The notes below the pieces were generated by a model. That model did no database searches, was not told the DNA's origin, and worked only from the letters and a program-made list of their open reading frames with translations. A DNA stretch of 64,000 nt from a bacterium (GTDB lineage: Bacteria > Patescibacteriota > Minisyncoccia > Phycocordibacterales > UBA9973). Location of the stretch: positions 252,274 through 316,273 of the forward strand of contig JBAXXQ010000001.1 of assembly GCA_037127795.1 (NCBI GenBank), written 5' to 3'. Positions 6,134 through 18,842 of the stretch are shown one piece after another. Position numbers and translations under genes: made by a program. The stretch's first letter is position 1; each line of letters starts with the position of its first letter.

Positions 6134-7546
6134 ATGAAATTATTTTCCAGAAAAACAAAAATTATCGCAACCATTGGCCCGGGGTCAGAATCAAAAGAAA
6201 TGTTCGCAAAACTTATTCACGCAGGGGTGAATGTAGCGCGTACCAATATGAGTCATGATGATCACGCAGGGCACACCAAGCGTATCAAAACTATTCGTGC
6301 TGTTTCAAAAAAAGAAGGAGTACCAGTAGCTATCTTGCAAGATCTTTCAGGACCAAAAATCCGTATTGGAGACTTTGCACAAGGACCTGTTGAGCTCGTA
6401 CCAGGAAAGCAATTTATTCTTTCAGGAACTCCTTGTGAAGGAGACGCAACAAAAGTATTTTTCAATTACCCAGATATTCGTCGCGATCTCAAGGTAGGAC
6501 AAGTGATCATGCTTGATGATGGAAAAAAGAAACTCGTAGTAACAAAAATTGCAGGAGATGATATCATAACAAAAGTTGTTGTCGGTGGTACAACAAAATC
6601 TCGTCGTGGGGTGAACCTCCCAGGTGCATACCTTTCTATTTCTGCACTCACAGACAAAGACAAAAAAGATCTCGCACTCGGTCTTGAGCTTGGTGTAGAT
6701 ATTATTGCATTGTCATTTGTGCGTACCGCAAAAGATATTGAAGAGCTTCGTGGTTTGATAAAAAAAGCAAAAGGTAATCAACTCATTGTTGCAAAGATTG
6801 AGACAGAAGAAGCAATTGCAAATATTGATGAAATTATTGCAGCAACAGATGCAGTTATGGTTGCTCGTGGAGATCTCGCTGTAGAGATTGGTCCAGAACG
6901 TGTTCCTGCTATTCAAAAAACTATTATAAAAAAATGTAATGATCTTGGTAAGCCGGTTATTGTTGCAACACAAATGCTCGAATCAATGATTCAAAGTCCA
7001 GTACCTACTCGTGCTGAAGTTTCAGACGTTGCGAATGCAATTTTTGATGGTGCAGATGCAGTCATGCTTTCAGAAGAAACAGCACTCGGTGCATATCCAG
7101 TAGAAGCAGTAACTACTATGCATCATGTTGCGCTCGATATTGAAGCACACATTGGGACACACCGTAGATTCCGTGTTCGTCATGACGATATTGTAGACTC
7201 TATTAGTTCTTCTGTAGTACACAACGCTGAAGACGCACATGCTCGTGCTATTGTTGCGCTTACTTCGAGTGGATTCACTCCTCGTATGATTGCTCGATAC
7301 AAGCCACAACAACCAATCATTGTACTTACTAGTTCAGAGCTTGTTGCTCGCCAAGTAATGCTTTCATATGGTTGTTTCCCAATTGTAGAAAAGAAATTCA
7401 AAGATATTTCTCAAGTTATGAAGGGGGTACATACATACTTGGAGCAAAAAGATTTGATCAATAAAAAAGATATCGTTATTCTATCAGCGGGGACTCCATG
7501 GGGTGTTTCTGGTGGTACAAACATGCTCGCAGTGCTTTCTCAATAG
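6134..7546 (+). CDS. pyk: Pyruvate kinase
   Basis: KTKIIATIGPGSES, NVARTNMSHDDH, MVARGDLAVEIG and C-terminal domain; 470 aa. Confidence 0.85.
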   Translation: MKLFSRKTKIIATIGPGSESKEMFAKLIHAGVNVARTNMSHDDHAGHTKRIKTIRAVSKKEGVPVAILQDLSGPKIRIGDFAQGPVELVPGKQFILSGTPCEGDATKVFFNYPDIRRDLKVGQVIMLDDGKKKLVVTKIAGDDIITKVVVGGTTKSRRGVNLPGAYLSISALTDKDKKDLALGLELGVDIIALSFVRTAKDIEELRGLIKKAKGNQLIVAKIETEEAIANIDEIIAATDAVMVARGDLAVEIGPERVPAIQKTIIKKCNDLGKPVIVATQMLESMIQSPVPTRAEVSDVANAIFDGADAVMLSEETALGAYPVEAVTTMHHVALDIEAHIGTHRRFRVRHDDIVDSISSSVVHNAEDAHARAIVALTSSGFTPRMIARYKPQQPIIVLTSSELVARQVMLSYGCFPIVEKKFKDISQVMKGVHTYLEQKDLINKKDIVILSAGTPWGVSGGTNMLAVLSQ

Positions 7547-7563
7547 TGGTATACTAGAGAGGT

Positions 7564-7920
7564 ATGAATATCATAATAAAATCAACAAACATGGAGCTTA
7601 CTCCGGCGATTAAGGATTATGCAGAAAAGCGTATCTCAAAAGCAATTGTAAAATATGTCACTGATGCCGCAGATCTTTCTATAGAAGTTGCAAAGACTAC
7701 CAATCATCACAAAAACGGTGATGTATTTATGGCAGAAACAAATGTCACTACTCCACTCGGTACACAATATCGCGCAGTGTCTGAAAAACCAGATCTCTAC
7801 GAAGCGATAGATGATGTCCGTGATACATTGGTACGTGAATTAAATAACTCAAAAGATAAAAAAGAAAATCTCTGGAGACGAAGCTCTCGCGCAATCAAAA
7901 AGATGGTACGAAAGTGGTAG
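7564..7920 (+). CDS. hpf: Ribosome hibernation promoting factor (HPF/RaiA, short form)
   Basis: N-terminus M.I.I.S.N.ELTPAI.DYAEKRISK with the beta-alpha-beta-beta-beta-alpha HPF signature; ~118 aa. Confidence 0.7.
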   Translation: MNIIIKSTNMELTPAIKDYAEKRISKAIVKYVTDAADLSIEVAKTTNHHKNGDVFMAETNVTTPLGTQYRAVSEKPDLYEAIDDVRDTLVRELNNSKDKKENLWRRSSRAIKKMVRKW

Positions 7921-7944
7921 TATTACGATAGTAAAAATAATAAG

Positions 7945-7983
7945 CATAGAGTATACTGTATGTATCTCTATGCTTTTATTTTT
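7945..7983 (+). terminator. Hairpin terminator after hpf (overlaps the start codon of the next gene)
   Basis: aagcatagag...ctctatgctt hairpin followed by ttattttttg. Confidence 0.35.
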
Positions 7984-10900
7984 TGTTCGACACAAGAAGA
8001 CTTTTTTTGCGCTCACATTTGTGTTTCTTTTTGGTGCAACAGTGTCTTTTGCGAATCCTCCTGTAGGTGGCTATGACCCTGGTACTATCCTTGATCCAGA
8101 TTGTGCACCAGGTAGTACAGACTGTACAGTAAATATAAATAATAAAATTAGTGCAGGAAATGGGGTTGAATTTGTCGGGCAAGCAATACAAGTCAAACTC
8201 GATGGAGCAAGTCTTTATAAATCAAATACGGGGTTAAAAATTTCTGATGGGTATATTGGACAAAGTTCTATTACTACTGTCGGGACTATTATTGCGGGGC
8301 ACTGGCATGGCGATGTGATAGATATTGCGCATGGTGGTACTGGGCTTGGCGCAACACCACAAAACGGAGAATTCCTTATCGGTAATGGTACTGGATACGA
8401 TTTGGTAAATCTTGCTGGGGCTGATGGTGTTGTTATTACAAATTCAGGAAGTACTGTGACTATTGGTCTTGGTACTAGTAATATACCAGTTATAACGAGT
8501 GTTTCTGGTACTGACTATATTCCAATCTATCAAACCACTAGTCCTGATGTTCGTAAAAAAATCACCTATAATGATTTGTTTTCTGGTGTTTTAGGGTCTT
8601 TGAAATATCAGGGTACATGGGATCCTGGTACAAACACACCTGCTATAGCAGATAGTGATTGTAATAGTTCTGCAAAAGGTAATTTTTATATTGTAGGTGC
8701 TTCAGGTAATAGACATATTGGTAGTGAATTTAGTTGGGAGTCTGGTGACTGGCTTATTTGTAAGGGGACTGTTTGGGAAGAGGTTGAAAAAACAAATAAT
8801 ATTGATTCTGTATTTGGTCGTATGGGAAGTGTTGTTGCTATGAATGGGGACTATACCGCATCACAAATCACTAATGTACCTTTTGGTAGTATTAGTTCTA
8901 TTACAGTGCAAAATGCTATTAATGAACTTGCGACAGAAAAAGAGCCAGTGATTGTTCCAGGACTTGCAAATGAATATTGGCGAGGAGATAAAACATGGCA
9001 AACATTGGATACTTCAAATGTTTCAGAGCATCCAGCAAGATTGTATTTTACTAATGCTCGCGCGGTAACAGCACTTACCGGGCAAAATCTTTCTATTTTT
9101 AATAACAATGTGGGATACAATTCTGGTACAGGTGCAGTAGGGCAAATTCCTTTTTGGAATGGTACAAATACTATAACAGGTGATACAGGGCTTGTTTGGG
9201 ATAATACTGATAAACAGCTTGTTATTGGTGGTGGGTCAAACTTCGCATTCTCTACACCATCTGCGGTGACTTTTAATATTGGTGGAAATGTCGATACGTT
9301 TTTTCAGGCAAATATTCAAAATCAGTCAAATGGTGCAAACGCATCAACTGATTGGATTGCAACATCTGACAATGGAAATGAGCTCGCAAACTATGTAGAT
9401 ATGGGAATTAATAGTTCTGGGTACAATACACCATCATTCAATATTACCGGAGTAAATGATGCATATTTATATAGTGCTGGAAATGATTTTGCGATCGGTA
9501 ATGCATCAATAGGAAAATCTTTAAAATTCTTTACTGGTGGAACAACTACTGCAAATCAGCGTTTAGTTATAGATGGTACAGGTGATGTAGTTTTTACACC
9601 AACATCTTCGTCTGCGACAACCTCATCATCTTCATTATCGTTTAATTCGACGTATGCGTTGACGGCTGCAAATACTGCAGTAACCACAGGGACTGTGTCG
9701 GCATTGGTAACAGCTCAGGGTGAGGTGGTCGGAAGTAGTATTACAAACGGGGTATTTAATGCGAGTGGACACAAATTGAGCTCTGCGGTGACATGGCCTA
9801 CAGTGCTTACTCCGACGTATTTTGATGAATATGATATTGCTGCGGGTGCAGGGTATTCACCAGTGATTCAATCTATTTCTATTGATACCGCTGTTACCGG
9901 AGGAAGTAATCAGCTTATTGGAGATTTGCGATATTCAACAGATGGAGGAAATACTTTTACATCTGCTGGGTCTGTAAAAAATTTCCCATTAACCTCTGGA
10001 TCGTATTTAACATTTTCATATACAGGTCTTTCTATTTCTGTTCCTAGTAATACTACTATTATATTTAGAGTATTTATATATGCGTCAGGAGTGGTGACAT
10101 CATCTCGTTCGGTGTATATGCGTAATATGCAAATTAATGGACAGATTGGTACTTCTACTGGATCTGTAAAAGGGGTAAGTATTGCAGGTAATTATACTGC
10201 ATCTGCAAGTAACCACGTGCTTAGTGCTTTGTACATAAATGGTACCTATAATGCCGCTGGGTATACTGGAGTAAAAAATTATGATTTGTATCAAGCAAAT
10301 GCGGCCGCAAGTAATTATTTTGCAGGAGTGGTAGGTATTGGGAATCTCAATCCGACATACATGCTCGATGTAGGAAGTAGTAGTGTCTCTGGTATTGTCG
10401 GGCGTTTTACGAATGCAACAGGGTCTTGTACGATATCTCCGACAACAACATCACTCTCATGTTCTTCAGATATAAATCTTAAGAAAAATATTGTCGTACT
10501 TGCAGACAATACACTCTTTACGCTCAGCACTATAACTACAGCACCAACAGCTACTACATTGGATAAAATAATGTCCCTTACCCCAGTGCAATATAATTGG
10601 AAAACAGAACAAGATACCGACCCAAAACACACCGGATTTATCGCGCAACAAGTAGAGCAAATATTCCCAGATCTCGTACTTACTGATCCAGAGACAAATC
10701 TCAAATCTGTAAACTATATGGGCTTTGCGCCATATCTTGTACAAGCGGTACAAGAGATAAATGTTACTATAAAAAATCTTTCTTCATTGGATACTGGAAA
10801 TATAAATTCTCTCGGCTCGCTCATAAAACAATTTCTTGCTGATTCAAAAAATAATATAGAAGATTTGTATGCAAAAAATATCCATAGTAGTAATCAAATT

Positions 10901-11044
10901 TGTATCAATAGTACTTGTATCAATGAAGATCAACTCAAACAAATGTTGAACAATACTACTCCGGTACAGCAATCAGTAGTAGATATTTCTATACAAGACC
11001 CTGCTATACCAGCAGTAATACCTGATACGAATTCTACCCAATAA
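7970..11044 (+). CDS. Giant secreted tail-fibre-like protein with C-terminal intramolecular chaperone / auto-processing domain (peptidase S74-like), paralog 1
   Basis: Signal peptide; Gly/Thr/Ser/Asn-rich body; C-terminal SCSSDINLKKNIV...LTPVQYNWK...HTGFIAQQVEQIFPDLV matches the endosialidase/tail-fibre chaperone motif (S-D-x-x-L-K-x-N-I ... GhIAQ-V); conserved CxxxxC-DQLKxML tail. Confidence 0.7.
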   Translation: MLLFFVRHKKTFFALTFVFLFGATVSFANPPVGGYDPGTILDPDCAPGSTDCTVNINNKISAGNGVEFVGQAIQVKLDGASLYKSNTGLKISDGYIGQSSITTVGTIIAGHWHGDVIDIAHGGTGLGATPQNGEFLIGNGTGYDLVNLAGADGVVITNSGSTVTIGLGTSNIPVITSVSGTDYIPIYQTTSPDVRKKITYNDLFSGVLGSLKYQGTWDPGTNTPAIADSDCNSSAKGNFYIVGASGNRHIGSEFSWESGDWLICKGTVWEEVEKTNNIDSVFGRMGSVVAMNGDYTASQITNVPFGSISSITVQNAINELATEKEPVIVPGLANEYWRGDKTWQTLDTSNVSEHPARLYFTNARAVTALTGQNLSIFNNNVGYNSGTGAVGQIPFWNGTNTITGDTGLVWDNTDKQLVIGGGSNFAFSTPSAVTFNIGGNVDTFFQANIQNQSNGANASTDWIATSDNGNELANYVDMGINSSGYNTPSFNITGVNDAYLYSAGNDFAIGNASIGKSLKFFTGGTTTANQRLVIDGTGDVVFTPTSSSATTSSSSLSFNSTYALTAANTAVTTGTVSALVTAQGEVVGSSITNGVFNASGHKLSSAVTWPTVLTPTYFDEYDIAAGAGYSPVIQSISIDTAVTGGSNQLIGDLRYSTDGGNTFTSAGSVKNFPLTSGSYLTFSYTGLSISVPSNTTIIFRVFIYASGVVTSSRSVYMRNMQINGQIGTSTGSVKGVSIAGNYTASASNHVLSALYINGTYNAAGYTGVKNYDLYQANAAASNYFAGVVGIGNLNPTYMLDVGSSSVSGIVGRFTNATGSCTISPTTTSLSCSSDINLKKNIVVLADNTLFTLSTITTAPTATTLDKIMSLTPVQYNWKTEQDTDPKHTGFIAQQVEQIFPDLVLTDPETNLKSVNYMGFAPYLVQAVQEINVTIKNLSSLDTGNINSLGSLIKQFLADSKNNIEDLYAKNIHSSNQICINSTCINEDQLKQMLNNTTPVQQSVVDISIQDPAIPAVIPDTNSTQ

Positions 11045-11049
11045 AACCT

Positions 11050-11274
11050 TTTGTTTTGTAGTCTTTACATAGTATACTTATAGCGTATATGCGCCACTTT
11101 TTTATCACACACAAGAAAACATTCTTCGCAATGTTATTTGTGATACTTTTTAGTACTACTATCTCTTTTGCTGACCGTGCAAACCCCTACACTGCAGGAG
11201 AAACTCTTGATCCAGACTGTGCGCCAGGAAGTGGGGTGAATTGTACGGTACATATTGCTGGTGGAGGAGGAACT
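11050..11274 (+). repeat. Copy A of a ~225 bp identical cassette (promoter + 5' end of gene)
   Basis: Sequence from tttgttttgtagtctttacatag... to ...gctggtggaggaggaact is identical to 14127-14354 except for a 3 nt GGA indel. Confidence 0.85.
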
Positions 11275-14121
11275 CAGACATTGCAAGATGTAACAACTGC
11301 AGGGAATTCTATAACTAATGATATTGGGAATCTTGCTGATAATACATGGAGGATAAATAGTAATGGTGTTGCAAGATTTGGACATCCTATAACTGGTACT
11401 GGAGTAGAGATAGACCCGGATGGAACTATACAATCAGTTGGTGGTAGTTATTCTACGTTTTTTACCGTGTATCCAGGTGGAGGGCAAATTTTAATGGGAG
11501 ATTTTGATGAAACTAGTGGTAAAACAAAATATTTATTAGATGATGTAGCACAAACCCAAACCTTCAATGCTAATAATGGGTTCTTATTTACAGGTGTTAA
11601 TTATCCAGGAGGGTTTGCAAGTATCAACCCAGATACTAATGAAATATTGTTAGGAGAATTCAACACATCAAATGATAATACACATATAGATATATTAAAT
11701 AATTCAGGACATACAGGTAATTATATAAGAACATATTCAAATCATGGGGAATTTAATAATTTAGGTGAAGGGATTAATTTAGATTTTGAACACAACCTAT
11801 TTCAATTAGGTGTATACAGTCAAGAAGGTCTTCAAACCTATATCTCTTTAGATGACAATGCTCAGACTCAATCTTTTAATGCTAGTAATGGGTTTAATTT
11901 TACAGGAAATAATTTTTCTTATGCAAATAGTGGTGGAGAGTATTTAATTAATGCAAACTTTAATAATCGAACTATTGTAATAGGAGATAATCAGCGTATT
12001 GCTGGTAATGGTAATAATTTAACTATTGATGATAATAACAATCTTATTACTTTAGGTAATATATCTTTAAGTGCTTCAATTGAATTAAACACATGGTCAG
12101 GTATAAATACATATTATGCTTATAGGGGGCATAATTTTACAGGAGGTGGTACATTGTCTACTGATGGTGATATAAGTGTAGGAAATAATATTGGAAACAC
12201 TGTTACAGGAGGATGGAGTATAGATAATGCAGGCGCAGCTCATTTTGCAGCAGGGAGCTTCAGTGTAGAAGGTAATGGTAATATTAATAGTGATGGTCAA
12301 TTAAGCCTTGCGGGTGGTAATGCCGGAATATTTAGTGATGGAAGTTTTAGTACTTATAATAACTCACTTGCTGCTAAAACAATAAGTTACAATGGGCATT
12401 TGTTACAAGTAACAGATAGTGTTTATGGTGGTAATTTTTTTAATGTAACAGAGGATGGTACTTTATCAATATCTCAATCTTCAAGTGGCAACAACACATT
12501 ATACATAAATGGTAGTGGTCAGTTCTATATAGCAGATAAGCAGAATGGTTACCAAACATTTAATGTGGGGTATGATTATTCTTATTTTCAAGATAAATAT
12601 TATGGTACTGGTATAGATGCTCAATATGCAAGATTTGAAAAAGATAATATATTCTTTCAAGATGTAACTGGTACACAGAAATATTTTACAGCTGATACTT
12701 TTGGTATACAAACAACTGATCCGATATCTGGAGTTAATGTGTTAGGTCCTAAATGGCTGTTAGGAAGATATAATACTAGTACTCAATCTTTAAATGTTTC
12801 TGTTGATGGTACACAATATAATATTCCTACGCAAACAATTTCGGTAAATGTATCAAATAATTCCGTATACTCTAGTTTATTAGGAAGTTCTAATTTGGCA
12901 TATTCTAATGTTTTAGGAAATAACGCAGGTCTTGGGGCAAGTGGTACATATAATAATTTTTTAGGACCACTTAGTGGCTTTGGAACAAGTGCCTCTTATT
13001 CAAATTTTATTGGAAACGGTGCTGGAGGGTTTGCGACAAATGCATCTCACTCCAACTTTATCGGAGATGGAGCTGGAGCCTTCTCATCATCTTCATCATA
13101 TTCTACCTTTATAGGTTTTCATGCTGGTGCTGATAGTATTTTTAATCCTTTAAATGGACAAAACAATATTATTATTGGTACAAATATAACTCTTCCTCCG
13201 AGTACAAGTAATGCTATTAATATAGGCGGTGTTTTGTTCGGTCTTAATACTCAAAATGATTATAGTGCCAATACTGCTTATTTTACCGCTGTTACCTCTG
13301 GCAAAATAGGTATTGCTAATGCTAATCCGTATTATACCCTCGACGTAGGTAATTCGTCGGTATCAGGAATAGTAGCTCAGTTCACCAACTCATCAGGTAG
13401 TTGTACTATCTCCCCAACAGGTTCAGCAGTTTCTTGTTCTTCCGACATCAACCTCAAGAAAAATATTGTTGCACTCAAGGATAATACACTCTTCACTCTC
13501 AACACTATCACTACAGCACCAACAGCTACCACACTAGACAAACTCATGACACTTACTCCAGTAAGTTACAACTGGAAAACAGAAAACGATACTGATAATA
13601 AACACACTGGATTCATCGCACAACAAGTAGAACAAGTATTCCCAGATCTAGTAACTACAGATCCAACCACTAATCTCAAATCTCTCAACTATATGGGCTT
13701 TGCACCGTATATAGTACAAGCAATACAAGAAATGAATTTCAAGATGACTGCAATCATTCCTGATGATCTTGATGCGACTGCGTATGCAAAAATAAAAAGT
13801 TTCTTGCATCAAGTTGCAACTGATGGAGAAATTACTTTCAATACTTTGAAAACAACACTTATCACTAGTGATGAAATTCGTGCAAATAAAACAACAACCA
13901 ACCAGCTCTGTGTCGGCACCACTTGTATCGATAGTGATCAGCTTGCAAAAATGCTCCAGTCTGCAAATTCACAAAATACAGCGCCAGGTACTCTTGTAGC
14001 AACTCCAGATACTACACAAACTCCAGCAACACCAGACCCTATACTAGCTCCTACTCCTGACCCAGCCCCAAGTACACCTGCTGTCACCGACACTACGACA
14101 CCTACTGTTTCTACACAATAA
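11089..14121 (+). CDS. Giant secreted tail-fibre-like protein with C-terminal S74-like intramolecular chaperone domain, paralog 2
   Basis: Same architecture; first 62 codons and 44 nt upstream identical to paralog 3; Gly/Ala/Asn repeat block; SSDINLKKNIVAL...YNWK...HTGFIAQQVEQVFPDLV; Pro/Thr-rich C-tail. Confidence 0.7.
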   Translation: MRHFFITHKKTFFAMLFVILFSTTISFADRANPYTAGETLDPDCAPGSGVNCTVHIAGGGGTQTLQDVTTAGNSITNDIGNLADNTWRINSNGVARFGHPITGTGVEIDPDGTIQSVGGSYSTFFTVYPGGGQILMGDFDETSGKTKYLLDDVAQTQTFNANNGFLFTGVNYPGGFASINPDTNEILLGEFNTSNDNTHIDILNNSGHTGNYIRTYSNHGEFNNLGEGINLDFEHNLFQLGVYSQEGLQTYISLDDNAQTQSFNASNGFNFTGNNFSYANSGGEYLINANFNNRTIVIGDNQRIAGNGNNLTIDDNNNLITLGNISLSASIELNTWSGINTYYAYRGHNFTGGGTLSTDGDISVGNNIGNTVTGGWSIDNAGAAHFAAGSFSVEGNGNINSDGQLSLAGGNAGIFSDGSFSTYNNSLAAKTISYNGHLLQVTDSVYGGNFFNVTEDGTLSISQSSSGNNTLYINGSGQFYIADKQNGYQTFNVGYDYSYFQDKYYGTGIDAQYARFEKDNIFFQDVTGTQKYFTADTFGIQTTDPISGVNVLGPKWLLGRYNTSTQSLNVSVDGTQYNIPTQTISVNVSNNSVYSSLLGSSNLAYSNVLGNNAGLGASGTYNNFLGPLSGFGTSASYSNFIGNGAGGFATNASHSNFIGDGAGAFSSSSSYSTFIGFHAGADSIFNPLNGQNNIIIGTNITLPPSTSNAINIGGVLFGLNTQNDYSANTAYFTAVTSGKIGIANANPYYTLDVGNSSVSGIVAQFTNSSGSCTISPTGSAVSCSSDINLKKNIVALKDNTLFTLNTITTAPTATTLDKLMTLTPVSYNWKTENDTDNKHTGFIAQQVEQVFPDLVTTDPTTNLKSLNYMGFAPYIVQAIQEMNFKMTAIIPDDLDATAYAKIKSFLHQVATDGEITFNTLKTTLITSDEIRANKTTTNQLCVGTTCIDSDQLAKMLQSANSQNTAPGTLVATPDTTQTPATPDPILAPTPDPAPSTPAVTDTTTPTVSTQ

Positions 14122-14126
14122 AATTG

Positions 14127-14354
14127 TTTGTTTTGTAGTCTTTACATAGTATACTTATAGCGTATATGCGCCACTTTTTTATCACACACAAGAAAACATT
14201 CTTCGCAATGTTATTTGTGATACTTTTTAGTACTACTATCTCTTTTGCTGACCGTGCAAACCCCTACACTGCAGGAGAAACTCTTGATCCAGACTGTGCG
14301 CCAGGAAGTGGGGTGAATTGTACGGTACATATTGCTGGTGGAGGAGGAGGAACT
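14127..14354 (+). repeat. Copy B of the ~225 bp identical cassette
   Basis: Direct comparison with 11050-11274. Confidence 0.85.
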
Positions 14355-17300
14355 AATGGGTGGGATAGTATGTTGGCGCAAAATCAAGTACAGACGCAGG
14401 ATAGAACTATTGATGTTAATAATAAATATTTACGATTTAGTAATATAAATGAAGTTGATTTTTCTGGGGTCTCTGGTCAAAACACTATTGAAATTGTGGA
14501 AGGGCAGGTAAATATGGGAGATATTGGTGGGGTTGGAAATGGTGTTTATTTTTCAGTTGATAGTCCTAATAATAAAATTTATTCATTGGCTGGAGGAAAT
14601 CCAGCTGGATTGAATCTTGATTTTAATAATCAAATATATGAATTGGGTGATTATGGTCACAATAATGATGCTACAACATTATCAGTAGATAATACTCATG
14701 ATATTATTTCTACTTATAGTGGTTCAAATAATTATAAAAATTCAGGTATTTATTTAGATTATGGAAATGCTGATTTTTATTATGGTGATTATGGTCACAA
14801 TCAAAATGGTACAGCAATTTTACTTGATGATCTAGCTCAAACCCAAACCTTCAATGCTAATAATGGGTTTACGTTTAATACTGACAATGGAGGATTTATT
14901 GTATCAGGTAGCAACAGTTACCATTATCAAGATGGGTTATTAGGGGCAATAATATCAGGTAGAATAGCATTTATAGGGGATAATTCTGGCGACTTTAATA
15001 GTACTAGTTTATTGGTTAATGACAATACTGGACAACAATTTATTGATTTTAATGCGCAAAACGGTTTCCAATTCACAGGAGGTTCTATAAGTAGTGATGG
15101 TAATATCTTACTAACAAACGGGGGTACTATATCTGCAAATGCAAATGATTTACAACTAATAAATAATGGTAATTCAAACTATATAAATGTAGGCGCAGGT
15201 GGTAATATAGAGGCACATTCAACAACTGGTGGGACGATAGCATTACAAGATGATTTAAATGGTGCAAAAATATTAATTAACAATTATGCGGGTGATATTG
15301 AATTAACATCTACTTTAGGAGCACCAATAAAAATGTTTGGAGGTAGTGTTCAAACTGATGGTGATATAGAAGGTGGTGGCAAGATAACCACACCTAATTC
15401 AACATTATTTTCAGATGGTTCTGTAGGACTTCCTCATGCTGCTATTAATGTAGACGGGGGTGGTTATTTATCTAATGGTAATTTTAGTTGGGATGCAGGT
15501 GGAAATATAACTACTTATGGTGATTTAAGTTTAATGGGGGGTAATGCGGGGATATTTTCAAATGGACATATATTTTCGGGGGTAGATGGGTTTAATAATT
15601 TTGATGCAACGCAATCTGGTTCACTTACAATTGCTTCAATTAGTGATGGAACAGCAACATTATTTACTGGTGGCGATGGAGATTTTTACATAGCAGATAA
15701 AACAAGTGGTAACCAAACATTCTATGTAGATGTAGCTGGAATGCAAACAACCGATGCAGTAGCGGGGGCGGGAACACTAAGCCCTGCGTGGAAGCTTGGA
15801 AGTTATAATAGCACTTCTGAATCTGTCGCTGTGTCTATTGGGGGTACACTATACAATCTCTCTACGCATGGTGTCGCACTCGATAGTAACAATAGCTTTA
15901 TTGTCGGAGGGGCTGGATCTTTTGGTGCAAATATAAATTCTGTATATGTAGGATTTGCAGCTGGGACTGGTGCAAATGATGCAAACAATTCAAACTTCCT
16001 TGGTGCAAATGCAGGGCTCAATGCGCAATTTGCAAACCATTCAAATTTCTTTGGTGCAGATGCTGGTAATGGTGCAATCAATGCAAGTGTCTCAAACTTC
16101 ATTGGGTACCAGGCGGGGTATGGGGCTGTGAATGCTACGGGCTCAAACTTCTTGGGGCAAGATGCCGGTCATGGTGCAACATATGCAACCAATTCAAACT
16201 TCTTTGGATTCCAGGCTGGATATGGTGCGCTCGGTAGTAATAGCTCTCCATTTAATAGTAACTTCTTTGGGTATCAAGCAGGGTATGGTGATTACAATCT
16301 CACCGACTCAAACTTCTTTGGATACCAAGCAGGATATATTGCAAATACTGCTATAAGTTCAAACTTCTTTGGAAATAGCGCAGGGTATGGAGCAACTAAT
16401 GCTGCGTATGCAAACTTTATGGGGTTTTATGCTGGGTATGGAGCTGGTAATGCAAACGGCTCAAACTTCTTTGGACGCAATGCAGGAGATTCTGCAAGTA
16501 ATGCATCATATTCAAACTTTATTGGATTTGCAGCAGGTAAGTATGCAACAAATGCTCAAATTTCAAACTTTATTGGAATCGGCGCAGGTCTTGATGCAAC
16601 AAATGCAAGTGAGTCAAATTTCTTTGGAGATAATACTGGGCGTGGTGCAACCAATGCTTCAAATGCAATATTTATAGGTGCAAGTGCTGGGTATAATGAT
16701 GCTGTAAATAATGTTTCAACTGGAGGGTTTTCAATTCTTATAGGGCCACATACAAATACTGGTGGCTATTCAAACAGTATTGCAATAGGTGGCTCTGCTA
16801 CCAATACCGCAACAAATCAATTTATGATCGGCTCAACTTCATTCCCAATCAATACTACTGTCATCAAAGGTGCAAGTACACAATGTACTATCACCACAGG
16901 TACAGGTATTGCATGTTCGTCTGATGCAAGTCTCAAGAAAAATATTGTAGCCGTACAAGATGGTACGCTTGCAAAAGTACTTGCACTCCGCCCGGTAACA
17001 TACAACTGGAATGATGAACAAGATACTGATCCGACACATATAGGATTCATTGCGCAAGAAGTAGAAACAGTATTCCCACAAGTAGTATCTATAGACCCTG
17101 CAACACATCTCAGACTGCTCTCTACGACCTCACTTATTCCTTATACTATCAAAGCTATACAAGAGATGCATATTACTATTACGTCTGTAATTCCAGATAC
17201 TCTTGATAGTACTGCGTATGGCAAAATAAAAGAATTTTTGCGAGAAATTGCTACAGAAGGGAAGGCTGTAGTAGATATTGTACAAACACATACACTCTGT

Positions 17301-17528
17301 GTAGACGATGTGTGTGTCACCCGTGATCAGTTCAAAAACATGGTCCAGCAAGCAGGTCAGCAACAAAGTGCTCCGAGTGTTGTTGTGCCTGTAGCACCTA
17401 GTACAACACCAGTAACCACTCCAACACCAGTTTCATCAGACGCTACTGTAGTAGACCCAGTTGTTACCCCAACACCAAGTCCTGTGGTAGATACTACTCC
17501 TGCTCCTGCATCTTCTGAAAATCAGTAA
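14166..17528 (+). CDS. Giant secreted tail-fibre-like protein with long SNFxG-xAG-GA-NA repeat array and C-terminal S74-like chaperone domain, paralog 3
   Basis: Identical N-terminus to paralog 2; ~17 tandem 14-16 aa Gly/Ala/Asn repeats; CSSDASLKKNIVAV...YNWN...HIGFIAQEVETVFPQV; Pro/Thr/Val-rich tail. Confidence 0.7.
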   Translation: MRHFFITHKKTFFAMLFVILFSTTISFADRANPYTAGETLDPDCAPGSGVNCTVHIAGGGGGTNGWDSMLAQNQVQTQDRTIDVNNKYLRFSNINEVDFSGVSGQNTIEIVEGQVNMGDIGGVGNGVYFSVDSPNNKIYSLAGGNPAGLNLDFNNQIYELGDYGHNNDATTLSVDNTHDIISTYSGSNNYKNSGIYLDYGNADFYYGDYGHNQNGTAILLDDLAQTQTFNANNGFTFNTDNGGFIVSGSNSYHYQDGLLGAIISGRIAFIGDNSGDFNSTSLLVNDNTGQQFIDFNAQNGFQFTGGSISSDGNILLTNGGTISANANDLQLINNGNSNYINVGAGGNIEAHSTTGGTIALQDDLNGAKILINNYAGDIELTSTLGAPIKMFGGSVQTDGDIEGGGKITTPNSTLFSDGSVGLPHAAINVDGGGYLSNGNFSWDAGGNITTYGDLSLMGGNAGIFSNGHIFSGVDGFNNFDATQSGSLTIASISDGTATLFTGGDGDFYIADKTSGNQTFYVDVAGMQTTDAVAGAGTLSPAWKLGSYNSTSESVAVSIGGTLYNLSTHGVALDSNNSFIVGGAGSFGANINSVYVGFAAGTGANDANNSNFLGANAGLNAQFANHSNFFGADAGNGAINASVSNFIGYQAGYGAVNATGSNFLGQDAGHGATYATNSNFFGFQAGYGALGSNSSPFNSNFFGYQAGYGDYNLTDSNFFGYQAGYIANTAISSNFFGNSAGYGATNAAYANFMGFYAGYGAGNANGSNFFGRNAGDSASNASYSNFIGFAAGKYATNAQISNFIGIGAGLDATNASESNFFGDNTGRGATNASNAIFIGASAGYNDAVNNVSTGGFSILIGPHTNTGGYSNSIAIGGSATNTATNQFMIGSTSFPINTTVIKGASTQCTITTGTGIACSSDASLKKNIVAVQDGTLAKVLALRPVTYNWNDEQDTDPTHIGFIAQEVETVFPQVVSIDPATHLRLLSTTSLIPYTIKAIQEMHITITSVIPDTLDSTAYGKIKEFLREIATEGKAVVDIVQTHTLCVDDVCVTRDQFKNMVQQAGQQQSAPSVVVPVAPSTTPVTTPTPVSSDATVVDPVVTPTPSPVVDTTPAPASSENQ

Positions 17529-18345
17529 AAGATATTCGTTTGCCATTTTCTGGAATAACAGTATCTATAATAAAATTGCCGCCTACGAAGTGTGCTTCTA
17601 CTATTTTTACTCGCTTAGTAATGCCTTCTTTTTTTGTATAAAAATATAATCCTGGCCAGCCAAAGTATGCGCGGTATTTTCTATCGAGTTCTATAGGATC
17701 ATCATCAAGATTGATTTCTCCGTGTTCTTTGGTGATTTTTTTTGTCTTACTTATATGTCGTGTGTCTTGTGGTATTGGGTGAGTATTATGTAAAAAAATA
17801 TCTTGGATAGTCTGAGGGAGTATCGCTACTGCGAGCGTGTTTAATTTTGCACGAAGGCTTCCTGTCGTGTCGTCTGGTGCTATAGCAAGCTCTTGTTGTG
17901 CAATGATATCTCCTGCATCGAGCTCATATACCATTTGTTGTATTGCAATACCAGTGACAGCATCGCCATGCAAAATAGCACTTTCTACAGGGGTTGCGCC
18001 GCGGTATTTGGGGAGGAGGGAATAGTGCACATTTATAGTGCCATACGTAGGAAGTTGTATAAGTGCTTCAGGGAGGATTTTGCCATATGCGACAACAACA
18101 AAAAGATCAAAATGTTCTTTTTGTAATTGCTCTATATATTCTGGTGTAATACGTTCTGGTTGATATACTGGGATATGCTCGTAGTCGCCCCAGTGTTTGG
18201 GAGCAGGAGACTCGATATGCATTCCACGACCTACTGGTCTATCTGGGTTGGTAATAATTGCACTAGGAGTAAGTCCCGCGTTTTTTAAACTATCTAAAAA
18301 GTCTACGGTAAATGCTGGTGTTCCAAAGAATGCTATTTTTTTCAT
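17494..18345 (-). CDS. fmt: Methionyl-tRNA formyltransferase
   Basis: MKKIAFFGTP...; formyl-transferase N-domain (HYSLLPKYRG) and C-terminal domain; def-fmt operon context; 3' end overlaps the giant gene 3' end by 35 nt on the opposite strand. Confidence 0.85.
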   Translation of the reverse strand: MKKIAFFGTPAFTVDFLDSLKNAGLTPSAIITNPDRPVGRGMHIESPAPKHWGDYEHIPVYQPERITPEYIEQLQKEHFDLFVVVAYGKILPEALIQLPTYGTINVHYSLLPKYRGATPVESAILHGDAVTGIAIQQMVYELDAGDIIAQQELAIAPDDTTGSLRAKLNTLAVAILPQTIQDIFLHNTHPIPQDTRHISKTKKITKEHGEINLDDDPIELDRKYRAYFGWPGLYFYTKKEGITKRVKIVEAHFVGGNFIIDTVIPENGKRISFTDFQKMQEQE

Positions 18346-18842
18346 TATTTTGTGTGATGAGGTGCTGGTACATCTTCGAGATTACTTGCTTTGTCTATAA
18401 AAAGGACACCAACAAGGTGGTCCATTTCATGTTGAAAAATTTGTGCGAGTAGTCCGCGACCACTCAATACAAATTCATTACCAGCAAAATTTGTTGCACG
18501 AATAGTTGCTGTTTCTGAACGTTTTACTTTGCCGTATTTCCAGCGTACAGAAAGACATCCTTCAGATACTACTACTTTCTTTTTTCCTACACGGATAAAA
18601 GAAGGATTGATACAAACGATATCATTTTCTGCATCAGAAAAAATCTTTTTTGATATGACAAAAATTTGTTTACTTACTCCTATTTGTGGTGCAGCAATAG
18701 CAACACCGTCTTCTTCGTGAGAAAGCGCTTCGCTCATATCATTGAGTATTTTTTGCAGTGCGGGAGTATTGAATTCGTCGGCGCCTACTGGTGCTGCGTC
18801 GTGGCGCAATACAGGAGCTGGTTCTTGCAAGATAGGTTTCAT
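18345..18842 (-). CDS. def: Peptide deformylase
   Basis: Motifs EGCLS and HEMDHL (metal ligands). Confidence 0.85.
   Translation of the reverse strand: MKPILQEPAPVLRHDAAPVGADEFNTPALQKILNDMSEALSHEEDGVAIAAPQIGVSKQIFVISKKIFSDAENDIVCINPSFIRVGKKKVVVSEGCLSVRWKYGKVKRSETATIRATNFAGNEFVLSGRGLLAQIFQHEMDHLVGVLFIDKASNLEDVPAPHHTK

What the first reader, a model, noticed from the sequence alone, without database searches (positions are those of the whole stretch)
15950..16700. Long array of ~15-residue Gly/Ala/Asn repeats (SNFxG-xAGxGA-NAxx) with 14 nt DNA direct repeats every ~48-57 nt
In paralog 3 the motif SNF(F/I/L)G..AG.GA.NA.. recurs about 17 times (...SNFLGANAGLNAQFANHSNFFGADAGNGAINASVSNFIGYQAGYGAVNATGSNFLGQDAGHGATYATNSNFFGFQAGYG...). 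A shorter array is in paralog 2 (12880-13150: YSNVLGNNAGLGASG.YNNFLGPLSGFGTSASYSNFIGNGAGGFATNASHSNFIGDGAGAF). The regular spacing of small residues and Asn/Phe is what is expected of a parallel beta-solenoid or beta-roll, as in tail-fibre shafts or the head repeats of trimeric adhesins. At DNA level the 14-mer tcaaacttctttgg (with variants) recurs at 16142, 16195, 16303, 16360, 16459, 16507, 16561 and 16612. That gives a substrate for slipped-strand or unequal recombination that would change repeat number and fibre length.
Basis: partly seen in the sequence, partly recalled or inferred. Interest (0 to 1): 0.5.

Follow-up and report, generated by a model that had tools for sequence, protein, structure and literature searches.

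The report
17-residue beta-solenoid shaft of fibre protein
The repeats are real and most likely form a rigid, stacked-coil shaft in a secreted, self-cleaving, tail-fibre-like surface protein of a small-genome bacterium; this repeat type is common in nature but uncatalogued, and here it shows no sign of rapid repeat-number switching.

Summary
Gene 14166-17528 (+) carries 13 canonical S-N-F-x-G-x-x-A-G-x-x-A-x-N-A-x-x units at 15990-16664. The period is exactly 17 aa (51 nt), not about 15, and one unit has 21 aa. One degenerate unit lies on each side. The upstream paralog has 5 units (12904-13152).

The array sits just upstream of a Peptidase_S74 intramolecular-chaperone domain. I therefore read it as the shaft of a trimeric, self-cleaving fibre.

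The repeat family is large: 2,838 cluster representatives, 93% of unit intervals equal to 17 aa, 3-59 units per protein. No Pfam model, NCBIfam model or PDB sequence matches the array.

The slipped-strand idea is only weakly supported. Units are about 60% identical in DNA and the longest exact repeat is 16 nt. The only independent close relative (84% nt identity) has the same 13-unit layout. Close pairs in other lineages do differ by exact 17- or 34-aa indels.

Unexplained: the core Asn and Phe use the rare codons AAC and TTC at those positions specifically. Verdict: an ordinary structural repeat, a new member of a known kind.

The parts
14166..17528 (+). Gene p3: 1120-aa precursor of a secreted fibre-like protein (NCBI MEI6022497.1, 'tail fiber domain-containing protein')
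   Evidence: ORF, translation, exact database match
14166..14249 (+). Predicted Sec signal peptide (MRHFFITHKKTFFAMLFVILFSTTISFA, followed by DRANPY)
   Evidence: By inspection: basic n-region, hydrophobic h-region, SFA cleavage-like site. No predictor was run.
14109..14348 (+). 5' leader block (upstream ~57 nt plus the first 61 codons), 98% identical to 11032-11271 at the start of p2
   Evidence: the repeat finder family D4, alignment
14349..15737 (+). Variable N-terminal half, only about 31% identical to the closest relative. It ends at the conserved G[MI]QTTD junction (residue 525).
15939..15989 (+). Degenerate first coil (SVYVGFAAGTGANDANN)
15990..16664 (+). Thirteen canonical 17-residue units S-N-F-x-G-x-x-A-G-x-x-A-x-N-A-x-x. 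The fifth unit (16194-16256) has 21 residues.
   Evidence: One coil per unit in the AlphaFold model.
16665..16715 (+). Degenerate last coil (AIFIGASAGYNDAVNNV)
16716..16916 (+). C-terminal cap or neck (GGFSILIGPHTNTGGYSNSIAIGGSATNTATNQFMIGS...TQCTITTGTGIAC) with NSIAIG-type motifs reminiscent of YadA heads. It is conserved in many family members.
   Evidence: Modelled with lower confidence, pLDDT 55-71.
16920..17087 (+). Peptidase_S74 intramolecular chaperone / autoprotease domain (residues 919-974). The S919-D-A-S-L-K924 motif fits the Ser-Lys dyad spacing.
   Evidence: Pfam PF13884, E 2.6e-17, 63.3 bits against a cut-off of 22. The motif was read. The dyad assignment is by analogy and was not tested.
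17367..17525 (+). Pro/Thr/Val-rich C-terminal tail
11089..14121 (+). Paralog p2 (1010 aa) with a Peptidase_S74 domain and a short array
12904..13152 (+). p2 short array: 5 units (SNVLG, NNFLG, SNFIG, SNFIG, STFIG) encoded with ordinary AAT/TTT codons
7970..11044 (+). Paralog p1 (1024 aa): same signal-peptide type and Peptidase_S74 domain, but no SNFxG array

Best explanation
Region 15939-16715 encodes about 15 stacked coils, 13 of them canonical, of a narrow beta-solenoid with 17 residues per coil. This solenoid forms the shaft of a secreted fibre-like protein.

The small conserved residues (Gly5, Ala8, Gly9, Ala12, Ala15) together with Ser1, Asn2, Phe3 and [F/I/L]4 build the tight core and turns. 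Positions 6, 7, 10, 11, 16 and 17 are free to vary and presumably lie on the surface.

The array is followed by a cap and then a Peptidase_S74 intramolecular-chaperone domain. By analogy with phage endosialidase and tail-fibre proteins, that domain would nucleate trimerisation, drive folding of the upstream beta-structure, and then cut itself off at Ser919 using Lys924. The product would be a stable trimeric fibre.

At about 4.8 Å per coil, 15 coils give a spacer of about 7 nm, so unit number sets shaft length.

The gene is one of three tandem paralogs in a housekeeping region of a low-GC, probably Patescibacteria (CPR) genome. The product is therefore most likely a cell-surface fibre or adhesin built from phage-type modules.

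Shown by tool results: the repeat, its period, the solenoid prediction, the Peptidase_S74 domain, the family's size, and the conservation of unit number in the relative. Inferred: trimer formation, self-cleavage, surface location, adhesive role, and which unit positions face the core or the surface (no coordinates were available).

The 14-nt DNA repeat is a by-product of the invariant S-N-F-F-G core combined with a position-specific codon preference. It is not a dedicated recombination signal.
For: Repeat and period.

Family consensus: 2,671 units give S(92%) N(96%) F(97%) [FIL] G x x A(86%) G x x A(90%) T(60%) N(46%) A(86%) x x. In the fetched homologs 2,671 of 2,878 adjacent-unit intervals are 17 aa.

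Peptidase_S74: E 2.6e-17, 1.9e-14 and 2.2e-14 in the three paralogs. PHROGs matches to tail-fibre and receptor-binding families cover the C-terminal parts. Of the 95 aligned array-containing sequences, 25 also carry Peptidase_S74.

Phage link: the family occurs in IMG/VR viral contigs, in one case immediately upstream of a holin-like gene and a few kb upstream of an endolysin-like gene.

Cellular context: IMPDH and pyruvate kinase lie upstream; fmt, def, hisS, lepB and gyrA lie downstream. The downstream genes are syntenic in the related contigs L016 and L025, and the upstream genes in L022-L024. GC content is not deviant.

Conserved unit number: the 91%-aa relative has the same layout.
Against: The model is a monomer, so it cannot show whether each chain forms its own solenoid or three chains intertwine.

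Foldseek found no significant PDB match (best E 0.33, TM 0.25 or less), and no PDB sequence relative covers the array even with a profile. The fold assignment therefore rests on prediction plus generic solenoid similarity at 14% identity or less.

DSSP assigns only one 3-residue strand and one bridge per coil.

Self-cleavage, trimerisation and surface display are untested. If the Peptidase_S74 domain cleaves, the Pro/Thr-rich tail is lost, so how the fibre stays on the cell is unclear.
Confidence: 0.7

Rival explanations
1. Contingency-type hypervariable repeat. The 14-16-nt direct repeats spaced 51 nt apart drive frequent slipped-strand or unequal recombination, so the population carries fibres of different length.
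For: All nine exact direct-repeat pairs of 14 nt or more in the array have in-frame offsets. The core 14-mer is more uniform than the protein requires. Other lineages show exact 17- or 34-aa indels between proteins 69-86% identical. Unit number ranges from 3 to 59 across the family. Related-strain contigs break inside the paralog cluster, which could reflect heterogeneity.
Against: Units are only about 60% identical in DNA, and the longest exact repeat is 16 nt. TRF sees only partial, imperfect arrays. The relative at 84% nt identity has the identical 13-unit layout, including the irregular unit, and two independent assemblies of that relative are 100% identical across the array. The AAC codon preference recurs in unrelated family members that use different Ser codons, so it reflects codon-level selection and not maintenance of a DNA signal. 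The contig breaks are also explained by the 240-nt near-identical 5' ends of p2 and p3.
Confidence: 0.1
2. Intertwined triple beta-helix or other three-chain fibre fold. The 17-residue units do not form a solenoid within one chain. Instead, three chains wrap around a common axis, as in the segments just upstream of Peptidase_S74 domains in endosialidase and T5 fibre proteins.
For: The Peptidase_S74 domain directly follows the array and cap. From my knowledge of phage fibre structures, such domains chaperone triple-beta-helix segments. The monomer model cannot exclude this. Foldseek finds no close single-chain PDB analogue.
Against: AlphaFold places a confident single-chain solenoid (pLDDT up to 98) without any partner chains. 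A strict 17-residue period with invariant Gly and Ala turns is typical of self-contained coils. The best viral match is a YadA-like head, where each chain has its own roll.
Confidence: 0.12
3. Enzymatic tailspike-like beta-helix (polysaccharide depolymerase or lyase), not a passive shaft.
Against: No Pfam beta-helix, pectate-lyase or glycosidase model matches. The coils are uniform and minimal at 17 residues, without the long loops or irregular coils that form active sites. Identity to the enzymes is 10% or less. Unit number varies from 3 to 59 in the family, which is hard to reconcile with a fixed catalytic groove.
Confidence: 0.05
4. Curli-like functional amyloid subunit or ice-binding solenoid.
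Against: The array is embedded in a 1120-aa protein with a Peptidase_S74 domain. No curli-type or other secretion genes appeared among the neighbouring genes scanned. The period is 17 residues, against about 22 for curlin repeats (from my knowledge).
Confidence: 0.03

Closest known systems
Phage tail fibres and tailspikes capped by the Peptidase_S74 intramolecular chaperone (K1F endosialidase, T5 L-shaped fibre, GA-1 neck appendage; Schwarzer et al. 2007, cited in PMC12220804)
   Same: A C-terminal PF13884 domain scores above threshold, with the S-D-x-x-x-K motif. It follows an elongated beta-rich region. PHROGs tail-fibre families match the C-terminal parts.
   Different: The gene is chromosomal, lies among housekeeping genes and carries a signal peptide. 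The upstream region is a 17-residue repeat array that no solved S74-bearing protein matches by sequence. An extra ~145 residues, including a Pro/Thr-rich tail, follow the Pfam-matched S74 region (residues 919-974).
YadA-like head (left-handed parallel beta-roll) of trimeric autotransporter adhesins
   Same: Short Gly/Ala/Asn-rich repeats with an x-N-[hydrophobic]-[hydrophobic]-G core. The cap contains NSIAIG-type motifs. The best viral structure match carries that annotation. A trimeric context is expected.
Autotransporter and TPS passenger beta-helices with short regular repeats (pertactin, Ag43, TibA, EtpA)
   Different: Identity is 7-14%. Those coils are wider, about 19-25 residues (from my knowledge). 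There is no autotransporter barrel or TPS domain here. Foldseek finds the similarity insignificant.
Chlorovirus glycoprotein repeat and related fibre repeats of giant viruses and Tenacibaculum phages
   Same: A Tenacibaculum phage protein annotated 'Chlorovirus glyco repeat' appears among the weak BFVD structure matches. The literature notes that YadA-like repeats, collagen repeats and the endosialidase chaperone co-occur in variable surface-adhesion genes (PMC13620141).
   Different: No Pfam match to that repeat. BFVD E-values for the named match are only about 0.02, with TM below 0.5.
Contingency loci with tandem coding repeats
   Same: In-frame direct repeats at a fixed spacing. Whole-unit indels occur among related family members.
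   Different: The DNA units are about 60% identical, not near-perfect. No copy-number change was seen in the close relative.

Membership tests
Peptidase_S74 (intramolecular chaperone of endosialidase) - applies to the whole protein | Match to Pfam PF13884 above the gathering score | tested here: met
   63.3 bits against a cut-off of 22, E 2.6e-17, residues 919-974. The paralogs score 54.1 and 53.9 bits.
Peptidase_S74 (intramolecular chaperone of endosialidase) - applies to the whole protein | Ser-Lys catalytic dyad in an S-D-x-x-x-K motif at the start of the domain | tested here: met
   S919-D-A-S-L-K924 in p3, and SSDINLKK in p1 and p2. The assignment is by analogy with endosialidase, from my knowledge.
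Peptidase_S74 (intramolecular chaperone of endosialidase) - applies to the whole protein | Trimerisation and autocatalytic release of the domain | not testable with these tools
   Needs expression and mutagenesis, or a multimer prediction.
SNFxG 17-residue repeat family (uncurated; defined here) | Consensus S-N-F-[FIL]-G-x-x-A-G-x-x-A-T-N-A-x-x in tandem | tested here: met
   13 units in p3. The family consensus comes from 2,671 units. 2,838 cluster representatives match at E of 1e-3 or better, and 413 at 1e-30 or better.
SNFxG 17-residue repeat family (uncurated; defined here) | Strict 17-residue period | tested here: met
   11 of 12 intervals in p3. 2,671 of 2,878 intervals across the fetched homologs.
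YadA-like head (Hep_Hag / YadA_head) of trimeric autotransporter adhesins | Match to the Pfam YadA_head repeat model | tested here: not met
   No hit for p3 at E up to 0.1, and none in the 95 aligned sequences at E up to 0.01.
YadA-like head (Hep_Hag / YadA_head) of trimeric autotransporter adhesins | 14-16-residue repeat forming a left-handed beta-roll | tested here: inconclusive
YadA-like head (Hep_Hag / YadA_head) of trimeric autotransporter adhesins | C-terminal YadA-type membrane anchor | tested here: not met
   Apart from one sub-threshold match near the N-terminus, the only Pfam domain found is Peptidase_S74.
Right-handed parallel beta-helix (pectate-lyase-like) tailspike enzymes | Sequence-model match or catalytic groove | tested here: not met
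Contingency-locus tandem repeat | Near-identical DNA units | tested here: not met
   Mean unit identity 60%, maximum 75%. The longest exact repeat is 16 nt. TRF reports 71-78% matches over partial arrays.
Contingency-locus tandem repeat | Copy number differs between close relatives or within populations | tested here: not met
   The same 13-unit layout is present in the 84%-nt relative, which was assembled in two samples. Only one independent relative was available and no read data. Other lineages do show 17- and 34-aa indels.
RTX-type calcium-binding beta-roll | GGxGxDxUx nonapeptide repeats | tested here: not met
   The period is 17 and there is no conserved Asp.

The most novel reading that the evidence does not exclude
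The three tandem genes are a modular set of cell-surface fibres of an episymbiotic small-genome (CPR) bacterium. In this reading a conserved 'chassis' (17-residue solenoid shaft, cap, and self-cleaving Peptidase_S74 domain) is recombined with rapidly exchanged N-terminal halves at fixed junctions, namely the shared 240-nt 5' leader and the G[MI]QTTD motif. This would retarget attachment to host cells, much as phages swap receptor-binding modules.

In addition, the invariant Asn and Phe of each coil would be under position-specific synonymous-codon selection. That would be an unusually clean natural case of codon choice tied to one structural position. Possible causes include translational accuracy.
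Probability: 0.2. Interest if true: 0.55.

Novelty: new member of a known kind. Interest (0 to 1): 0.3.

Why it matters
For this window the finding is mainly tidy annotation: the repeats are the shaft of a tail-fibre-like surface protein.

Three wider points could be useful.

1. The 17-residue SNFxG repeat is very common in metagenomes (2,838 cluster representatives at 50% identity), yet no Pfam model, NCBIfam model or sequence-related solved structure covers it. One structure plus a curated model would annotate thousands of proteins.

2. Phage-type fibre modules sitting in the core chromosome of a probable CPR bacterium are candidates for the host-attachment apparatus of these episymbionts.

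3. The position-specific AAC/TTC codon preference recurs in independent genes. It offers a compact natural test case for selection on synonymous sites at a defined structural position.

Tried and rejected
- **Family libraries on the array.** Pfam and NCBIfam gave no model on the array itself, and PHROGs matched only the C-terminal parts.
- **PDB by sequence.** A single-sequence search and a profile search found nothing on the array. The profile hit only a downstream 'GKVGIG' motif in 8ojn. The C-terminal 281 aa gave nothing meaningful.
- **Single-sequence AlphaFold.** pLDDT was 53, too low to use. It was replaced by the alignment-based model.
- **Structure libraries.** Foldseek against PDB found no significant hit. 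The afdb50 library was unavailable.
- **Phage collections.** tblastn against the GenBank phage collection (50,697 records) found only Sphingomonas phage PAU gp257. A pattern scan of viral contigs with the alignment failed for lack of conserved stretches. The single-protein scan worked.
- **Search for closer relatives.** Genome and metagenome scans returned only relatives at 33-57% identity. The close relative came instead from the exhaustive protein search and cluster look-ups.
- **Frameshift-avoidance hypothesis for the AAC/TTC preference.** I considered avoidance of an A-AAU-UUY slippery heptamer. It does not fit: the preference also occurs with TCT and TCC serine codons (L005, L009), and p2 contains TCA-AAT-TTT.
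- **Recent amplification or homogenisation.** I considered this as the source of the uniform 14-mer. It does not fit: Gly and Ala synonymous sites in the same units look equilibrated, and the Asn and Phe codons flip between the window and its relative.
- **RNA and regulatory scans.** Rfam found nothing in 7000-18500. The promoter and terminator scans were uninformative, with fewer hits than in shuffles.
- **Literature.** Searches found no paper on this repeat or on S74 proteins of Patescibacteria. Two papers gave only general context.
Full report
**What is at the coordinates.**
The finding lies inside a 3,363-nt ORF, 14166-17528 on the + strand (1120 aa). This is the third of three tandem, same-strand ORFs: p1 7970-11044, p2 11089-14121 and p3 14166-17528. 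I checked the translation with a motif scan. It shows [SA]-N-F-[FILM]-G at residues 609, 626, 643, 660, 677, 698, 715, 732, 749, 766, 783, 800 and 817. That is 13 units, eleven intervals of exactly 17 residues and one of 21.

A degenerate unit precedes the array (SVYVGFAAGTGANDANN, 15939-15989) and another follows it (AIFIGASAGYNDAVNNV, 16665-16715). The motif does not occur anywhere else in the protein.

The period is therefore 17 aa (51 nt), not about 15. The count is about 15 units, 13 of them canonical, not about 17. The short array in p2 is also real, with five units at 12904-13152.

**The DNA repeat.**
TCAAACTTCTTTGG matches with 2 or fewer mismatches at eleven in-register positions between 15990 and 16614. 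It matches only once elsewhere on the + strand of the window.

The units as a whole are diverged. Mean pairwise nt identity is 60% and the maximum is 75%. Tandem Repeats Finder reports only partial arrays at 71-78% matches. The longest exact direct repeat is 16 nt, and all nine exact pairs of 14 nt or more have in-frame offsets.

The core is nevertheless more uniform than the protein requires. Ser-Asn-Phe is TCA-AAC-TTC in 11/13, 11/13 and 10/13 units. Background usage in the window's other long ORFs is TCA 27%, AAC 19% and TTC 23%, giving binomial p values of 5e-6, 6e-7 and 6e-5. Gly and Ala synonymous sites in the same units follow ordinary usage. The second conserved Asn of the unit (position 14) is AAT in 9 of 9 cases.

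**Protein context.**
All three paralogs match Pfam Peptidase_S74, the 'chaperone of endosialidase', near the C-terminus. The E-values are 2.6e-17, 1.9e-14 and 2.2e-14. In p3 the domain begins at S919-D-A-S-L-K924. From my knowledge of endosialidase, this fits the Ser-Lys dyad spacing of that autoprotease.

PHROGs tail-fibre and receptor-binding families match the C-terminal parts only. NCBIfam has no match.

The N-terminus looks like a Sec signal peptide by inspection. NCBI names the protein 'tail fiber domain-containing protein' (MEI6022497.1, from a MAG labelled only 'bacterium', on a 580.6-kb contig).

The neighbours are housekeeping genes. An AI-2E transporter, IMPDH and pyruvate kinase lie upstream. 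fmt, def, hisS, lepB, S1 and gyrA lie downstream. GC content across the cluster is not deviant. The nearest homologues found in named genomes are Candidatus Parcubacteria and Paceibacteria MAGs. The host is therefore probably a Patescibacteria (CPR) bacterium, and the cluster is chromosomal, not an obvious prophage.

**How common the repeat is.**
An exhaustive HMMER search with the 317-aa array against 1.84 billion cluster representatives gave 2,838 proteins at E of 1e-3 or better and 413 at 1e-30 or better. Typical identity was about 50%, in proteins of up to 4,953 aa.

Among the fetched homologues, 2,671 of 2,878 adjacent-unit intervals are exactly 17 residues, and proteins hold 3-37 units. 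One Parcubacteria ORF has 59 units.

The consensus from 2,671 units is S(92%) N(96%) F(97%) [F/I/L] G x x A(86%) G x x A(90%) T(60%) N(46%) A(86%) x x. Positions 2-5, 8 and 9 were partly fixed by the pattern used to collect the units.

No Pfam model matches the array in p3 or in any of the 95 aligned sequences. Of those 95, 25 carry Peptidase_S74, two carry BppL_N and two carry collagen repeats. No PDB sequence matches the array, even with a profile.

The family also occurs in IMG/VR viral contigs. In L017 the array protein sits immediately upstream of a holin-like gene and a few kb upstream of an endolysin-like gene. In the GenBank phage collection searched, only Sphingomonas phage PAU gp257 matches.

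**Structure.**
The single-sequence AlphaFold model was poor (pLDDT 53), though already periodic. With a 95-sequence alignment (A1), the model of residues 575-918 reached pLDDT 81.2 and pTM 0.79, with ten-residue blocks up to 98.

DSSP places one three-residue strand at unit positions 2-4 (N-F-x) and one isolated bridge about ten residues later in every unit. This gives strands at model residues 19-21, 36-38, 53-55 and so on, with the single 21-residue step at the irregular unit. That is one coil per unit, a narrow beta-solenoid.

- cyanophage and other tailspikes;
- Ag43, TibA, UpaB and EtpA.

All have 14% identity or less.

Foldseek against PDB found nothing significant (best E 0.33), so no solved structure is a close analogue. 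In BFVD the best hit is a 'Trimeric autotransporter adhesin YadA-like head domain-containing protein' of an uncultured phage (E 7e-8, 29% identity). Further significant matches are unnamed viral proteins, and a Tenacibaculum phage protein annotated with a chlorovirus glycoprotein repeat appears at E 0.02.

I could not access coordinates. Handedness and the inward or outward orientation of residues are therefore not established.

**Does the repeat number change?**
The closest relative came from the exhaustive search: P0007, encoded on ENA contig L016, which carries the same downstream genes (fmt, def, then an incomplete ORF at the contig end). A full-length copy, P0282, lies on a 315-kb contig from a second sample (L025). 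The two are 100% identical over the C-terminal half, so they represent one independent relative sampled twice.

Over the array that relative is 84% identical in nt and 91% in aa to the window. It has exactly the same 13 units in the same order, including the 21-residue unit, with no indel.

Elsewhere in the family, pairs at 69-86% aa identity differ by exact whole-unit indels. The 17-aa cases are P0161/P0269, P0024/P0026, P0013/P0268 and P0047/P0097. The 34-aa case is P0177/P0209.

Whole-unit gain and loss is therefore a real evolutionary process in this family, plausibly through in-register slippage or recombination. Nothing here points to a fast switch.

**The codon anomaly.**
The AAC preference at Asn-2 recurs in independent family members from other low-GC genomes. 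The AAC/AAT counts are L005 9/0, L006 9/2, L009 19/0, L010 10/2, L011 7/1 and L012 18/6. Asn elsewhere in the same genes is mostly AAT. The preference is absent in L001, L002 and L004.

The Ser codon differs between loci (TCA versus TCT or TCC), so this is not inheritance of a 14-mer. Pooled over loci, Asn-2 differs from Asn-14 of the same units (Fisher p 1.5e-5).

Between the window and its relative, the Asn-2 and Phe-3 codons flip in 3 of 13 and 4 of 13 units. The bias is thus a maintained equilibrium, not frozen sequence.

A context effect exists in the background: Asn before Phe is AAC in 7 of 23 cases, and before Tyr in 9 of 18. It is too weak to explain 11 of 13. Phe-3 is TTC in all seven units where position 4 is Phe (TTT), which fits avoidance of long T runs.

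I could not decide between translational accuracy at a structurally critical Asn, homopolymer avoidance, and codon context. Whichever applies, the 14-nt DNA repeat is best read as a by-product of an invariant peptide core plus a codon preference.

**Mechanism proposed.**
I propose the following sequence of events.
1. The precursor is exported.
2. The C-terminal Peptidase_S74 domain brings three chains together and chaperones folding of the cap and the solenoid array.
3. The domain then cleaves itself off, leaving a stable trimeric fibre.

In the mature fibre the array would be a shaft of about 7 nm, from 15 coils at about 4.8 Å each (the rise per coil is from my knowledge of beta-solenoids). 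Its presumably exposed positions (6, 7, 10, 11, 16, 17) are rich in Tyr, Asn, Gln and Ser.

The repeat, its period, the predicted solenoid, the S74 domain, and the family's distribution are shown by tool results. Trimerisation, cleavage, surface display and any adhesive role are inferred.

**Comparison with known systems.**
The protein is a member of the Peptidase_S74 family by the sequence criteria tested.

The array works like the repeats of YadA-like heads and autotransporter beta-helices. It fails the membership tests for YadA heads that could be run: no Pfam match, a period of 17 against 14-16, and no anchor domain.

It is not a contingency repeat by the DNA-identity criterion.

The kind of thing (a beta-solenoid repeat shaft in an S74-capped fibre protein) is known, and NCBI already labels the gene as tail-fibre-like. 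I therefore rate it a new member of a known kind, of modest interest. The mildly interesting points are the size of this uncurated, structurally unsolved repeat family, its presence in a CPR chromosome, and the codon bias.

**Other observations.**
- p2 and p3 share a 240-nt block at 98% identity, covering about 57 nt upstream and the first 61 codons. They diverge abruptly after it.
- The relative's gene is mosaic. Its C-terminal half is 91% identical to p3, but its N-terminal half is only 31% identical. Its sequence just before the junction (FSADTFGIQTTD) resembles p2.
- Every related-strain contig that reaches the cluster ends inside it.

These points suggest module exchange among paralogs. 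I did not test that further.

Noticed in passing
window 11032-11271 and 14109-14348: The starts of p2 and p3 share a 240-nt block at 98% identity, covering about 57 nt upstream plus the first 61 codons (signal peptide, PYTAGETLDPDCAPGSGVNC motif, Gly run). Similarity then stops abruptly. This suggests recent gene conversion or a shared 5' cassette.
   Followed up: partly
window 14349-15737 versus L025 672-2300 and L016 560-2170; junction near window 15738 (GMQTTD): The closest relative's orthologue is mosaic. It is 91% aa identical to p3 from about residue 525 onward but only about 31% identical before that. Its sequence just upstream of the junction (FSADTFGIQTTD) is p2-like. The N-terminal half, not the repeat array, is the fast-changing or exchanged module.
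   Followed up: partly
window 15990-16664; also L005, L006, L009-L012, L016: There is a position-specific synonymous codon bias. Asn-2 and Phe-3 of each unit use the rare AAC and TTC codons, whereas Asn-14 of the same units and Asn elsewhere use AAT. The bias recurs in independent family members but not in all of them. The cause is unresolved.
   Followed up: partly
L016, L022, L023, L024, L025 (ENA GROS21-1 metagenome scaffolds): All five related-strain contigs that reach the paralog cluster terminate inside it. L016 also has a run of N and frame breaks in the N-terminal half of the orthologue. This could reflect assembly collapse at the shared 240-nt block or real strain heterogeneity.
   Followed up: no
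window 11532-11582, 11844-11894, 14819-14869 (and 14646-14693 / 14784-14831): The N-terminal halves of p2 and p3 contain a second, longer-period repeat module (LDD-x-AQTQ-[TS]-FNA-x-NGF-x-F). The same module occurs in proteins P0003, P0004 and P0006, which lack the SNFxG array and the S74 domain.
   Followed up: no
window 15939-16715: Ten N-x-S/T sequons fall within the 259-aa array region, several of them at the conserved N14-A15-[S/T]16 position. This recalls glycosylated adhesin beta-helices and 'glycoprotein repeat' proteins. No glycosyltransferase context was examined.
   Followed up: no
window 15939-16715 (+ strand RNA): The array RNA folds better than dinucleotide shuffles (z = -3.3, only 20 shuffles). 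The likely cause is the recurring TGCAA/TTGCA-type self-complementary Ala-codon strings. No Rfam family matches.
   Followed up: no
window 7970-11044: Paralog p1 has no SNFxG array. Its central part matches different phage tail families (phrog_5481 and phrog_31460). Its C-terminal S74 region is 71% nt identical to that of p2 (10332-10631 versus 13307-13606).
   Followed up: no
window ~7590-7920 (+): A small ORF between pyruvate kinase and p1 (MELTPAIKDYAEKRISK...) corresponds to the Ribosomal_S30AE (hibernation factor) gene called at the same position in the related contigs L022-L024.
   Followed up: no
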